Notes under the pieces: model-generated
What the model was told of the DNA's origin: nothing
Databases searched by the model: none
What the model saw: the letters and a program-made list of their open reading frames with translations, nothing else
In this document: positions 59,186-62,987 of the stretch, piece after piece
Layout of the letters: every line of letters begins with the position of its first letter
Position numbering within the stretch: the first letter of the stretch is position 1
Translations under genes and position numbers: made by a program
Assembly: GCF_009914755.1 (NCBI RefSeq)
Contig: NC_060928.1
Strand: one strand, 5' to 3'
Length of the DNA: 64,000 bases
Origin: the human T2T-CHM13v2.0 reference genome, Homo sapiens

Positions 59186-59265
59186 GTTTTGATATACCTT
59201 GATGCCCACTGTGAGGTGGCAGTTAACTGGTATGCACCACTTGTAGCTCCCATATCTAAGGACAG
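59186..59265 (+). CDS. GALNT7: GALNT7 coding exon 5 (80 nt; DXH Mn2+-binding motif)
   Basis: Acceptor ctttttttttaag| and donor AG|gtaaca. Translates VLIYLDAHCEVAVNWYAPLVAPISKD(R); LDAHCE is the DXH motif. Confidence 0.97.
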
Positions 59266-59959
59266 GTAACATTACCTTGCTTTTTTTCTTTCCTGGTTGA
59301 AAGTAAACCTTGTCCTAGAAGGGCAAATAATATTTTCATCCTTTGATTCCAGCTCCATTCAGTGCATCGAGTGTGCTTTAGTGTTATCCCTCATCTATTT
59401 GTTTCCTTGGGTGGAGCTAGACTGATACTGTGGACTGATTTAAATGTAGGCAGTCTGGCATTTGGGAGAAACCTAGGGTTCCTCACTCAAGAATCATTTT
59501 GTGGTTGGGTTATTAAGACCCCTCTATCTCCAGGCACTTTCTCTAAGAGTTATATGAATTGCTCCCTCTAAACTGGGGTGAGAGTTCTAAACACTTGAGG
59601 AACCATGCTTTGATATTATACCTGTTGATTTTTGTGCCTTTTAAATTAGTACTTTCAATAGTAAAGACCAGGTGTTACTTGTGTCAAGGTTTTGGGTTCC
59701 TATAGAAACTTTAAAGTTTAGAAATAGACAACTATTCCATGGAATTGTGACAATCACCATTAAATTTCCAGAAATGTCTAAAACAACATAAGGCACCATC
59801 AGTTTTCTATCTCCAAAAGCCTTCCTTGCTTCTAGTCCATAATTAGGAAAATAAAACACGTCCATGTGGCAAATGGCAAATGGCATGAATCAAAGGCAGA
59901 ACTTTGGAGGATTTAATCATGAGAGGATTTAATGTGAAGGCCGAACATGAACATTTTTC

Positions 59960-61216: not shown

Positions 61217-61399
61217 AACTACATGTACTGTGCCTCTAATAGATTACATAGATGGGAATGATTATTCCATTGAACCACAGCAAGGTGGGGATGAAGATGG
61301 TTTTGCCAGAGGGGCCTGGGACTGGAGTTTACTATGGAAACGTATTCCTCTAAGCCACAAGGAAAAGGCCAAAAGAAAACATAAAACTGAACCTTATCG
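61217..61399 (+). CDS. GALNT7: GALNT7 alternative exon 6 (upstream paralogous copy, '6a', 183 nt); candidate mutually exclusive exon
   Basis: Acceptor gtttcag| and donor CG|gtaaag. Translates (R)TTCTVPLIDYIDGNDYSIEPQQGGDEDGFARGAWDWSLLWKRIPLSHKEKAKRKHKTEPY(R) with no stops or indels. Same length and phase (2/2) as 61537-61719. Not in the ORF track. Confidence 0.88.
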
Positions 61400-61434
61400 G
61401 TAAAGACTATTACTTTATTTTCTTATGTTGAATG

Positions 61435-61536
61435 TTTATCTAAGTTCTTTTTTTTTTCTTCCCCATGAACTCGTATAAATGTGTGGGTCCATACATACGC
61501 TTCCATTTGATCTTTGCTGCCATCAACACAATACAG
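61435..61536 (+). promoter_or_regulatory. Candidate distant branch point, polypyrimidine tract and AG-exclusion zone for exon 6b
   Basis: TTTAT/CTAAG (A at 61438 or 61443) is directly followed by a pyrimidine run at 61445-61464. There is no AG from 61445 until the acceptor at 61535-61536, and the sequence next to the acceptor (catcaacacaatacag) lacks a U-rich tract. Confidence 0.6.
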
Positions 61537-61719
61537 AACCATTTGCACTGTGCCGCTTATAGATGTCATAAATGGCAACACATATGAAATTATACCCCAA
61601 GGGGGTGGTGATGAAGATGGGTATGCCCGAGGAGCATGGGATTGGAGTATGCTCTGGAAACGGGTGCCTCTGACCCCTCAAGAGAAGAGACTGAGAAAGA
61701 CAAAAACTGAACCGTATCG
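61537..61719 (+). CDS. GALNT7: GALNT7 exon 6 (downstream copy, '6b', 183 nt; the version in the reference protein as I recall it)
   Basis: Acceptor aatacag| and donor CG|gtaatc. Translates (R)TICTVPLIDVINGNTYEIIPQGGGDEDGYARGAWDWSMLWKRVPLTPQEKRLRKTKTEPY(R), in frame with exon 5. Confidence 0.95.
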
Positions 61720-62987
61720 GTAATCACTAAATCACTTACATATTTTTCTTTTCTCCAGTTGCTGCTAACCTATTAACCTCTTGCCAAGCTAAAGATTCGT
61801 TATTAAAACTGTAGATGTTGTCTCAGATTCTGAAAGAACATCTTTCCTTACACTGTTTCAGAGCTTTCAATCTGCTCCATTTGCTCCATTGTAATTGCTT
61901 TTACCCTAAATGTGATGTCCACTACTGAGACGTACACACTTTCATTGGGGAAAGAAAAATAATGTAACATGGCATTTGTTCCACGTACAAGTGAAAAAAA
62001 GATAAAATCTTAGTTATCCTGTCCTACTGGATTAGACATCAAATTTTATTCTTTTGATGACAGTGTCATTCTATAAATTTAAAATACATAAATTACTTTA
62101 ATCCAACCAAGACTTTTATTTCCACGTTCATGCCGTGGGTATAATGTTAACAATGAAGGGCACTAGCAAGAGATTTCTGGGTTTTTCTCCCCTTTTGCTG
62201 TTATGTTAACTCTCAAATACTAATTTTGTACTAGTTAAATCTGATGAATCACAATACATGACTTTAAAAAATGTTACATAGAATCCTTTATTGCTTCATT
62301 CTCAGAAAAGTGATTGATTAAAAGAAAACTCTATTCAAAAATCAGCTTTTGTCCCTTCTTGTGGTTCTTTCAGTAGAACAACTTATGCTACTCTCTTCTT
62401 TTGATCTTGTAATTAGAACATTTTACTGTCTCTGTAAAAAGTGACCCCAAATGAAATGTTTGCTCAAGTGTTAGTATAGCCTTCTCCTGAATGTGTCTAA
62501 TCTTATTTTTCTGATCCTATGGTTCTGCTTTTGGTCTCTCTCTCCCTGTTACACTGCTGGTGATGTTAGAACTCTGTTTTGGGAAGGTGCTTCCAATGTT
62601 ATGGAAACGCTGTGGGATTTGGGCATGTCATGATATCAAGATACTGAATGGCAAACATAAAGAAGTTATAGCACTTAATTAATCATAGTAGCTTAATTGG
62701 ACATTTACCAAATTTTTTTTGGTAAATTTCTTATTCAGAATAGTCCAGGAATCAACTGCTTACGTGCTTAACTTAACAAATAACTGTGGGAGAAAAAAAA
62801 TAAAGGGTGCTGAGCAAATTTATATTTCTGTTAATTCCATAGGCCAGTAAAGAAAATTTTTAAAGTGACCTAGAAAAATTAAAGGGAGGTTATCTGTTGA
62901 TTAACTCACTGGTGACCATGTTAAGATGCATTTTCAAGTATATACTGAGATGAATGGGAACATATTTGAAGAAAAATAAACCCAGCT

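What the first reader, a model, noticed from the sequence alone, without database searches (positions are those of the whole stretch)
61217..61719. Tandemly duplicated exon 6 of GALNT7: an intact candidate mutually exclusive exon pair in the catalytic domain
Seen: two 183-nt exons with starts 320 nt apart, both cag|A...CG|gtaa, phase 2/2, stop-free and indel-free. Manual alignment gives 44 of 60 residues identical, and 20 of those 44 use different synonymous codons. The flanking intron sequences show no visible similarity. The ORF track misses the upstream copy. Inference: high silent divergence with conserved protein and splice sites implies an old duplication under purifying selection on both copies, so one gene may yield two equal-length GalNAc-T7 isoforms. 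Including both exons would duplicate, and skipping both would delete, core GT-A elements. The isoform may already be annotated, but it would be invisible on size-based RT-PCR or western blot.
Basis: partly seen in the sequence, partly recalled or inferred. Interest (0 to 1): 0.92.

Follow-up and report, generated by a model that had tools for sequence, protein, structure and literature searches.

The report
Known alternative exon pair in GALNT7
Human GALNT7 carries two ancient, tandemly duplicated copies of exon 6 that give two equal-length versions of the enzyme; the pair is real and strongly conserved, but it is already annotated and listed in published catalogues, and only what the swap does remains unstudied.

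Summary
Exons 61217-61399 (6a) and 61537-61719 (6b) are both 183 nt, in the same phase, stop-free and indel-free. They share 44/60 residues, and 20 of those 44 use different codons.

The pair is not new. RefSeq and Ensembl (ENST00000505308) annotate 6a. It is event 84 in Martinez-Gomez 2021 (NAR), and the gene is in a supplementary gene list of Lam 2021.

What I add:
- **Age.** The duplication predates jawed vertebrates. The exon tree splits cleanly into 6a and 6b groups (support 97).
- **Constraint.** 6a is the more constrained copy, 60/60 identical from human to alligator and turtles.
- **Signature residue.** 6a carries a derived, near-invariant Tyr332. This site is homologous to the peptide-groove residue Val255 of GalNAc-T2.
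- **Splicing signals.** The 137-nt intron between the exons has a ctaAg motif and a pure 20-nt pyrimidine tract 44 nt from the 6a donor, followed by a 90-nt AG-free zone. This suggests, but does not show, a distant branch point that sterically blocks 6a-6b joining.
- **A published assay.** The "exon 6" RT-PCR primers in a 2026 endometriosis paper both lie inside 6b, so that assay cannot see a switch to 6a.

No RNA or protein data could be examined here.

The parts
59186..59265 (+). GALNT7 exon 5. It ends with AG, which takes the first base of either exon 6 copy to make Arg. It encodes the DAH (DxH) metal-binding motif region.
   Evidence: hub annotation table.
61217..61399 (+). Exon 6a, the upstream and alternative copy. 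It encodes residues 323-382 of the 657-aa isoform and carries the signature Y332, D334, E341, Q344, L360, H377.
   Evidence: The peptide is identical to the ENST00000505308 exon in PMC8373072. The hub table lists it as an exon of other RefSeq transcripts.
61400..61536 (+). The 137-nt intron between the two copies. Its donor is gtaaag. It shows no similarity to the other flanking introns.
61438..61444 (+). Candidate distant branch-point motif atctaAg. The A at 61443 is intron position 44. This is predicted only.
   Evidence: it is followed by 20/20 pyrimidines. All motifs upstream of the tract lie under 46 nt from the 6a donor.
61445..61464 (+). Pure 20-nt pyrimidine tract (ttcttttttttttcttcccc).
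   Evidence: it is one of 11 runs of 20 or more pyrimidines on the + strand of the 64-kb window.
61445..61534 (+). The 90-nt AG-free zone that runs up to the 6b acceptor.
   Evidence: it is the longest of the six annotated acceptors in the window (the others are 27-62 nt). Only 17 of 4470 AG-to-AG gaps are 90 nt or longer, and this is the only one of those that opens with a pyrimidine run of 15 nt or more.
61506..61512 (+). Rival, conventional branch-point candidate atttgAt, 27 nt before the 6b acceptor, with a weak downstream tract (12/20 pyrimidines).
   Evidence: One search shows that the 6b acceptor has the poorest proximal pyrimidine content of the six (11/20).
61537..61719 (+). Exon 6b, the downstream copy used in NM_017423.3 and in the crystallised enzyme.
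   Evidence: It is 60/60 identical to PDB 6IWQ chain residues 263-322. Hub table.

Best explanation
Exons 6a and 6b are the two copies of a tandem exon duplication that arose before the last common ancestor of jawed vertebrates. They are used as alternative homologous exons. GALNT7 therefore makes two 657-aa GalNAc-T7 isoforms that differ at 16 of 60 positions (residues 323-382) inside the GT-A catalytic domain. The exon structure, the homology, the age, the constraint on both copies, the domain location and the prior annotation and cataloguing are shown here.

Two further steps are inferred. First (my odds about 0.45), joining of 6a to 6b is prevented sterically. The branch point that serves 6b would lie just upstream of the 20-nt pyrimidine tract, at most 44 nt from the 6a donor and below the roughly 50-nt threshold. 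This is the arrangement described for alpha-tropomyosin exons 2/3 and OGDH exons 4a/4b. Second (my odds about 0.5), the swap retunes the acceptor (glyco)peptide groove rather than donor binding or catalysis. The residues homologous to GalNAc-T2 Phe280, Trp282 and Tyr284 are the same in both copies. The residue homologous to the groove residue Val255 is a derived, near-invariant Tyr in 6a and Val/Ser/Ala in 6b.
For: Structure and homology.

Prior knowledge: PMC8373072 supplementary table, event 84, pairs ENST00000265000 with ENST00000505308. It is classed as internal, with last common ancestor Vertebrata, and is flagged as present in Lam et al. Its exon peptides are identical to my translations, and its GRCh38 coordinates are 320 nt apart. 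ENSG00000109586 appears in supplementary file 5 of PMC7954323. The hub table lists 61217-61399 as an exon of other RefSeq transcripts.

Age and constraint: 220 of 221 candidates matched 6a (120 listed). In one search, 276 of 278 matched 6b (120 listed). Heterodontus, Leucoraja and Amblyraja each have separate X1 and X2 isoforms of the two types. The tree of 52 exon peptides puts upstream and downstream copies on the two sides of one branch, SH-aLRT 97. There are 71 unique a-type and 85 unique b-type peptides, with mean column entropy 0.43 against 0.61.

Domain: PF00535 spans 210-397 in both isoforms. PDB 6IWQ carries 6b.

Groove: the alignment to GalNAc-T2, read with the passage in PMC4432651 naming Val255, Leu270, Phe280, Trp282 and Tyr284 as peptide-groove residues, puts Val255 at exon position 10, which is residue 332. 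That position is Tyr in 69/71 a-type peptides and Ser/Val/Ala in b-type. It is never Tyr in the 34 more distant relatives that have a residue there.

Splicing: see the distant-motif, pyrimidine-tract and AG-free-zone entries under parts. The roughly 50-nt steric threshold and the distant-branch-point arrangement are taken from passages of PMC7969005. Two teleost models that read through the intervening intron translate it as 77 and 88 residues. F/L/S/P/C make up 46 and 47 of these, and K+E+Q only 1 each, which implies a pyrimidine-rich, AG-poor intron in fish too.
Against: No RNA-seq, cDNA or lariat data could be examined, so exclusivity and the branch point are not shown.

The 2021 catalogue has no proteomics flag for this event.

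Among the 120 proteins listed for 6a, 23 contain both copies in tandem. Many are 'hypothetical protein' predictions. Some are named isoforms: Carettochelys X3, Natator X3 (a 718-aa cluster of 68 members), Alligator X2 and Clarias 3-T3. Co-inclusion may therefore occur in some lineages, or predictors may add both open exons.

A conventional branch-point candidate exists 27 nt before 6b. If it is the one used, there is no steric block.

The GalNAc-T2 alignment is weak overall (E 0.04-0.13). Only the P-I/L-I-D-V-I anchor that places position 10 is secure, and the Leu270 equivalent is uncertain.

The more distant relatives are unnamed, so their orthology is unknown.

pS is near saturation, so dN/dS is rough.
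Confidence: 0.9

Rival explanations
1. Mutual exclusion is not steric. The 6b branch point is the conventional one near 61510, and the choice between 6a and 6b is set by competing RNA structures or by tissue-specific RNA-binding proteins on the pyrimidine tract.
For: There is a candidate atttgAt 27 nt before the acceptor. Both donors are weak, each matching 5/9 of the consensus, as is usual for regulated exons. Models holding both exons exist in other vertebrates. A purine-rich element at 61936-61965 is complementary to pyrimidine tracts at 59280-59309, 61450-61464 and 61741-61751.
Against: The proximal tract is the poorest of the six acceptors (11/20), while a perfect 20-nt tract sits 72 nt further upstream at the head of a 90-nt AG-free zone. 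Folding of 61380-61560 is no more stable than shuffles (z +0.99, 169 of 200 shuffles fold at least as well). The best long-range duplex (-24.3 kcal/mol) is ordinary among 110,685 window pairs, where many reach -27 to -37. The duplex between exons 6a and 6b is matched by 224 of 400 codon permutations.
Confidence: 0.45
2. The two exons are often included together, giving a 718-aa protein with a duplicated segment. The pair would then be a constitutive internal duplication rather than an alternative pair.
For: Inclusion of both keeps the frame (junction codon CGA). 23 of the 120 listed models hold both copies, including named isoforms in turtles and alligator.
Against: The RefSeq Select transcript and the crystallised protein have 6b alone (hub table). 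Lam et al. admitted only pairs that never occur together in one Ensembl transcript (passage in PMC8373072), and this event is flagged as present in their set. The both-exon model breaks the PF00535 match at profile position 132 of 168. Single-exon 657-aa clusters are far larger (298, 574 and 804 members).
Confidence: 0.04
3. Exon 6a is a decaying or unused relic that is annotated only because it stays open.
For: There is no peptide evidence in the 2021 catalogue. No paper in the library describes the isoform's activity.
Against: 6a is 60/60 identical from human to alligator and turtles and 53/60 to a shark. It is more conserved than 6b (50-52/60 to turtles). Both of its splice sites are intact. 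Isoforms carrying it are annotated from sharks to primates.
Confidence: 0.02

Closest known systems
Tandem exon duplication-derived substitution events in human genes (Martinez-Gomez et al. 2021, PMC8373072; Lam et al. 2021, PMC7954323)
   Same: This is one of them: event 84 in the 2021 catalogue. It is an internal pair of equal length and phase, homologous and ancient, as for most internal events in that catalogue (100 of 111 were found in fish, passage).
   Different: Nothing differs in kind. It lacks the proteomics flag that 81 events have. It is not in the Hatje et al. set according to the catalogue, nor in the three Hatje supplementary files held.
Mutually exclusive exons enforced by a distant branch point: alpha-tropomyosin exons 2/3, alpha-actinin, OGDH exons 4a/4b (PMC7969005 and its references 35 and 36)
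   Same: The intervening intron is short, a long pyrimidine tract sits near its 5' end, an extended AG-free zone runs to the downstream acceptor, and the candidate branch adenosines lie under 50 nt from the upstream donor.
   Different: The branch point here is predicted, not mapped. The tract is 20 nt, whereas OGDH has a 'megaPPT' and an AG-free zone of about 280 nt. A conventional candidate also exists. I could not see Tables S6/S7 of that paper, so I do not know whether GALNT7 is among its 41 predicted introns.
ATE1 exons 7a/7b (competing RNA structures; PMC7797038, seen in the search listing only)
   Same: It is also an enzyme with a homologous internal alternative exon pair.
   Different: No docking/selector complementarity beyond chance was found around the GALNT7 pair. 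Cross-species conservation of such structures could not be tested.
GALNT13 homologous-exon event (event 83 in the same catalogue)
   Same: It is in the same enzyme family and is also a tandem duplication-derived substitution.
   Different: The GALNT13 event is C-terminal and dated to Chordata. The GALNT7 event is internal, in the catalytic domain.

Membership tests
Tandem-duplicated homologous alternative exon pair (mutually exclusive exons) | Adjacent exons of the same length and phase with significant sequence homology | tested here: met
   183/183 nt, same phase, 128/183 nt and 44/60 aa identical, no indels.
Tandem-duplicated homologous alternative exon pair (mutually exclusive exons) | Each copy has its own acceptor and donor | tested here: met
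   cag|A and CG|gtaa at both copies.
Tandem-duplicated homologous alternative exon pair (mutually exclusive exons) | Both copies are kept under purifying selection in other species | tested here: met
   The 6a and 6b groups are separated by one branch with support 97 across 26 taxa. Identity of 6a is 60/60 to alligator and turtles.
Tandem-duplicated homologous alternative exon pair (mutually exclusive exons) | Transcripts carry one copy or the other, and never both or neither | not testable with these tools
   No RNA data are on hand. Indirect support: separate single-exon isoforms are annotated, and the event is flagged in the Lam set, which excludes pairs seen together. Against: 23 of 120 listed models hold both copies.
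Exclusion enforced by a distant branch point (steric) | Branch point less than about 50 nt from the upstream donor | not testable with these tools
   Motif candidates only: branch A at intron positions 18-44, the best being atctaAg at 44. A rival lies at position 111.
Exclusion enforced by a distant branch point (steric) | Long pyrimidine tract after the branch point and an extended AG-free zone up to the acceptor | tested here: met
   20/20 pyrimidines at 61445-61464. The AG-free zone is 90 nt, against 27-62 nt at the other five acceptors.
Exclusion enforced by competing RNA structures | Docking/selector complementarity beyond chance | tested here: inconclusive
   Nothing in the human sequence exceeds chance. 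Conservation across species could not be examined.
Exclusion by U2/U12 spliceosome incompatibility | One of the donors is of the U12 type (RTATCCTT) | tested here: not met
   The donors are gtaacatt, gtaaagac and gtaatcac.
Exclusion enforced by frameshift and nonsense-mediated decay | Exon length is not a multiple of three | tested here: not met
   183 = 61 x 3. The 6a-6b junction codon is CGA, and no stop is created.
Polypeptide GalNAc-transferase (GT-A catalytic domain plus ricin-type lectin domain) | PF00535 + PF02709 + PF00652 in both isoforms | tested here: met
   P0033 (6a type) and P0133 (6b type) both give PF00535 at 210-397, PF02709 and PF00652 above the curated cut-offs.

The most novel reading that the evidence does not exclude
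The 6a form of GalNAc-T7 is in effect a separate and so far uncharacterised isoenzyme. It is the more strongly conserved of the two forms and carries a derived, invariant Tyr332 (with Gln344) on the wall of the acceptor groove. It would therefore select different (glyco)peptide substrates from the crystallised 6b form. The choice between the two would be hard-wired by a distant branch point that makes 6a-6b joining sterically impossible. Published 'exon 6 loss' in disease tissue could then be a 6b-to-6a switch rather than skipping.
Probability: 0.3. Interest if true: 0.55.

Novelty: already known. Interest (0 to 1): 0.25.

Why it matters
GalNAc-T7 is one of the two 'follow-up' enzymes that extend mucin-type O-glycosylation on peptides that are already glycosylated. 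All biochemistry and the crystal structure I could find use the 6b form. An equally long second form, conserved for more than 400 million years, would escape size-based assays, and several of its residues that distinguish it from 6b lie in or near the substrate groove. Glycoproteomic substrate maps for GALNT7 may therefore be incomplete. At least one published splicing assay measures only 6b. As a genome-scan result, though, it is a re-discovery of an annotated and catalogued event.

Tried and rejected
**A third, decayed exon copy.** A 3' splice-site-like repeat at 61843-61865 lies about 320 nt after 6b. However, 61862-62044 has stops in all frames and only 51/183 and 46/183 identity to the two exons, and no local alignment in the flanks beats shuffles. 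Rejected.

**RNA structure as the exclusion mechanism.** Local folding, inverted repeats, duplex scans and the duplex between exons 6a and 6b against synonymous-codon nulls gave nothing beyond chance.

**U12 incompatibility and frameshift/NMD.** Neither condition is met.

**Which copy is ancestral.** More distant relatives are mosaic. D334, L360, I365 and H377 of 6a match the majority of those relatives, while Y332 is found only in 6a. No clear answer.

**Literature on isoform function or tissue use.** Searches found none. PMC5665647 has no GALNT7 in its main text. PMC6225866 concerns a different GALNT7 exon. The GALNT review PMC8472655 does not mention isoforms in its GALNT7 section.

**Catalogue checks that came back empty.** The three held Hatje 2017 supplementary files have no GALNT7. 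The Lam preprint main text has none. The held supplement of PMC9741552 has none.

Full report
**Observation.**
- Both exons are 183 nt with starts 320 nt apart, and both are bounded by cag|A and CG|gtaa.
- Exon 5 ends in AG, and the first base of either copy completes AGA (Arg). Sixty whole codons follow, and CG is left for the next exon.
- Only that frame is open in both copies.
- The ungapped alignment has 128/183 identical bases and 44/60 identical residues. Of the 44, 20 use different codons. Differences fall 13/12/30 on codon positions 1/2/3.
- Nei-Gojobori gives pS 0.72, pN 0.19 and a ratio near 0.09. pS is close to saturation, so the ratio is only a rough figure.
- The repeat finder reports one 196-nt direct repeat at 71%. 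It extends 3 nt upstream and 10 nt downstream of the exons, so the introns have lost all likeness.
- Each exon lies in a stop-to-stop frame of 76 or 70 codons that ends at the TAA formed by the donor.

**Already known.**
- The hub's RefSeq table lists 61217-61399 as an exon of other GALNT7 transcripts.
- The supplementary table of Martinez-Gomez et al. 2021 (PMC8373072; I read part 1 of the table and matched passages) lists GALNT7 as event 84. It pairs ENST00000265000 with ENST00000505308. The event is internal, gene family age Bilateria, last common ancestor of the event Vertebrata. It has no proteomics flag, is not in Hatje et al., and is in Lam et al.
- The two exon peptides printed in that table are letter-for-letter my translations. 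The GRCh38 coordinates (chr4:173297795-173297977 and 173298115-173298297) are 183 nt long and 320 nt apart.
- Supplementary file 5 of Lam et al. 2021 (PMC7954323) contains ENSG00000109586.
- According to a passage of PMC8373072, Lam et al. did not admit pairs that occur together in one Ensembl transcript.
- The three Hatje 2017 supplementary files held have no GALNT7. The Lam preprint main text has none, and its supplements are closed.

**Age and constraint.**
- Searching with each 60-residue peptide among longer proteins gave 220 of 221 (6a) and 276 of 278 (6b) candidates at E <= 0.001, with 120 listed each and 216 distinct proteins in all.
- 6a-type and 6b-type 650-660-aa isoforms are annotated separately from sharks and skates (Heterodontus, Leucoraja, Amblyraja, Rhinoraja X1/X2) to primates.
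- Human 6a is 60/60 identical to alligator and two turtles, 58-59/60 to birds and snakes, 56/60 to coelacanth, 53/60 to Heterodontus and 49-54/60 to ray-finned fishes. Human 6b is 50-52/60 to the same turtles and alligator and 45-48/60 to teleosts.
- Across all 239 exon-like segments there are 120 of a-type, 118 of b-type and 1 tie. That gives 71 unique a-type and 85 unique b-type peptides, with mean column entropy 0.43 against 0.61.
- A maximum-likelihood tree of 52 peptides puts all 26 upstream copies on one side of a branch and all 26 downstream copies on the other, SH-aLRT 97. Two models with irregular spacing, P0020 and P0023, were left out.
- For 44 rows the label is positional. These are the 21 two-exon models plus human. 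For the 8 rows from Heterodontus, Leucoraja, Amblyraja and Polyodon the label came from which human exon they resemble, which is partly circular.
- The duplication therefore predates jawed vertebrates, and the copies have evolved as orthologous lineages since. The mammalian 6b branch is long (0.15).

**What the swap changes.**
- The exon encodes residues 323-382, inside the PF00535 match 210-397 of both isoforms.
- The solved GalNAc-T7 structure (6IWQ/6IWR) carries 6b.
- Shared invariant positions include the G-G-D, A-R-G-A-W-D-W and L-W-K-R-x-P-L blocks.
- The a-type has near-invariant Y332 (69/71), D334 (70/71), E341 (71/71) and Q344 (70/71). The b-type has S/V/A, N/H/D, E/V/I and G (78/85) at those positions, plus invariant M360 (85/85).
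- The phmmer alignment to GalNAc-T2 (weak overall at E 0.04-0.13, but anchored by P-I/L-I-D-V-I) equates T2 Val255 with residue 332, Phe280 with W362, Trp282 with R364 and Tyr284 with P366.
- A passage of PMC4432651 names Val255, Leu270, Phe280, Trp282 and Tyr284 among the residues of the T2 peptide-binding groove.
- So the groove residues in the second half of the exon are common to both forms, while the Val255 equivalent is one of the positions that differ most consistently between the two types.
- In 37 more distant, unnamed relatives from the representative library, that position is A/V/G/S/I and never Y, 0 of the 34 that have a residue there. Tyr332 is therefore a 6a novelty.
- At positions 334, 360, 365 and 377 it is 6a that keeps the majority state of those relatives. 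Each copy thus has its own derived states.
- I infer that the swap tunes acceptor choice. This is inference, not shown.

**How the choice might be enforced.**
- Frameshift/NMD cannot do it: 183 is a multiple of 3, and the 6a-6b junction codon CGA creates no stop.
- None of the three donors is U12-like.
- RNA structure gave nothing beyond chance. The intron region folds no better than shuffles (z +0.99). The best long-range duplex involving the region (-24.3 kcal/mol, 59280-59309 with 61936-61965) is ordinary among 110,685 window pairs. The duplex between exons 6a and 6b is matched by 224 of 400 codon permutations.
- The 137-nt intron does have an unusual layout. The 6b acceptor has the poorest proximal pyrimidine content of the six acceptors in the window (11/20).
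- The nearest upstream AG is 90 nt away, against 27-62 nt at the other five acceptors. Only 17 of 4470 AG-to-AG gaps in the window are that long. This is the only one that opens with a pyrimidine run of 15 nt or more, here a perfect 20-mer at 61445-61464.
- That run is immediately preceded by atctaAg, with the A at intron position 44. Any branch point that uses this tract lies less than 46 nt from the 6a donor.
- Passages of PMC7969005 describe the same logic for OGDH exons 4a/4b and cite alpha-tropomyosin and alpha-actinin, with a steric threshold of about 50 nt.
- Two teleost models that read through the intervening intron translate it into 77 and 88 residues. F/L/S/P/C make up 46 and 47 of these and K+E+Q only 1 each, which is what a pyrimidine-rich, AG-poor intron would give.
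- Against this, a conventional candidate (atttgAt) lies 27 nt before the acceptor.
- Also against it, 23 of the 120 proteins listed for 6a hold both copies in tandem, among them named isoforms in turtles, alligator and a catfish. Predictors may simply include both open exons, but I cannot exclude real co-inclusion in those species.
- I put the steric mechanism at about 0.45.

**A published assay that overlooks the pair.** PMC13039441 (passages) reports reduced inclusion of GALNT7 'exon 6' in endometriotic lesions, from rMATS skipped-exon calls and RT-PCR with primers described as flanking the exon. The two 'Exn-6' primers in its Table S1 both map inside exon 6b, at 61553-61570 (+) and 61680-61697 (-), with no mismatch. 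Neither matches 6a within three mismatches. The 145-bp product reports the presence of 6b only. It cannot separate skipping, a switch to 6a, or lower expression.

**Verdict.**
The pair is already in both reference annotations and in the published catalogue, and the gene is in a second published gene list, so the novelty class is 'already known'.
- Three things remain open: the enzymology of the 6a form, its tissue use, and the exclusion mechanism.
- I found no paper on any of these in the library. The library lacks most subscription journals, and I could not read several supplements.

Noticed in passing
window 61553-61570 (+) and 61680-61697 (-): The two 'GALNT7 Exn-6' RT-PCR primers in Table S1 of PMC13039441 both lie inside exon 6b and do not match 6a. 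That paper's 'exon 6' is therefore 6b. Its assay cannot tell skipping from a 6b-to-6a switch or from lower expression.
   Followed up: yes
P0001-P0023 (proteins): 23 of the 120 listed protein models carry both exon copies in tandem. In 21 of them the 6a-type copy is followed 61 residues later by the 6b-type copy. They include named isoforms of 718 aa in turtles (one cluster has 68 members). These could be real co-inclusion or an artefact of gene prediction.
   Followed up: partly
P0020 residues about 373-449; P0024 (unnamed): Two teleost models appear to read through the intron between the copies. The 77 and 88 extra residues are dominated by F/L/S/P/C and almost lack K/E/Q/R. This implies a pyrimidine-rich, AG-poor intron in fish as well.
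   Followed up: partly
window 59280-59309 and 61936-61965: An element just after the exon 5 donor and a purine-rich element about 220 nt after exon 6b are reciprocal best duplex partners (-24.3 kcal/mol). Pairing would loop out both exon copies. The energy is not exceptional among all window pairs in the 4.7-kb region, and conservation could not be checked.
   Followed up: partly
window 61843-61865: There is a 3' splice-site-like copy of the 6a acceptor region about 320 nt after 6b, at the spacing of the duplication. What follows it has stops in all frames and no likeness to the exons, so there is no third exon.
   Followed up: yes
exon 6b lineage, tree: The mammalian 6b branch is long (0.15 changes per site), while 6a is unchanged across amniotes. 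The 'canonical' human exon is the faster-evolving copy.
   Followed up: partly
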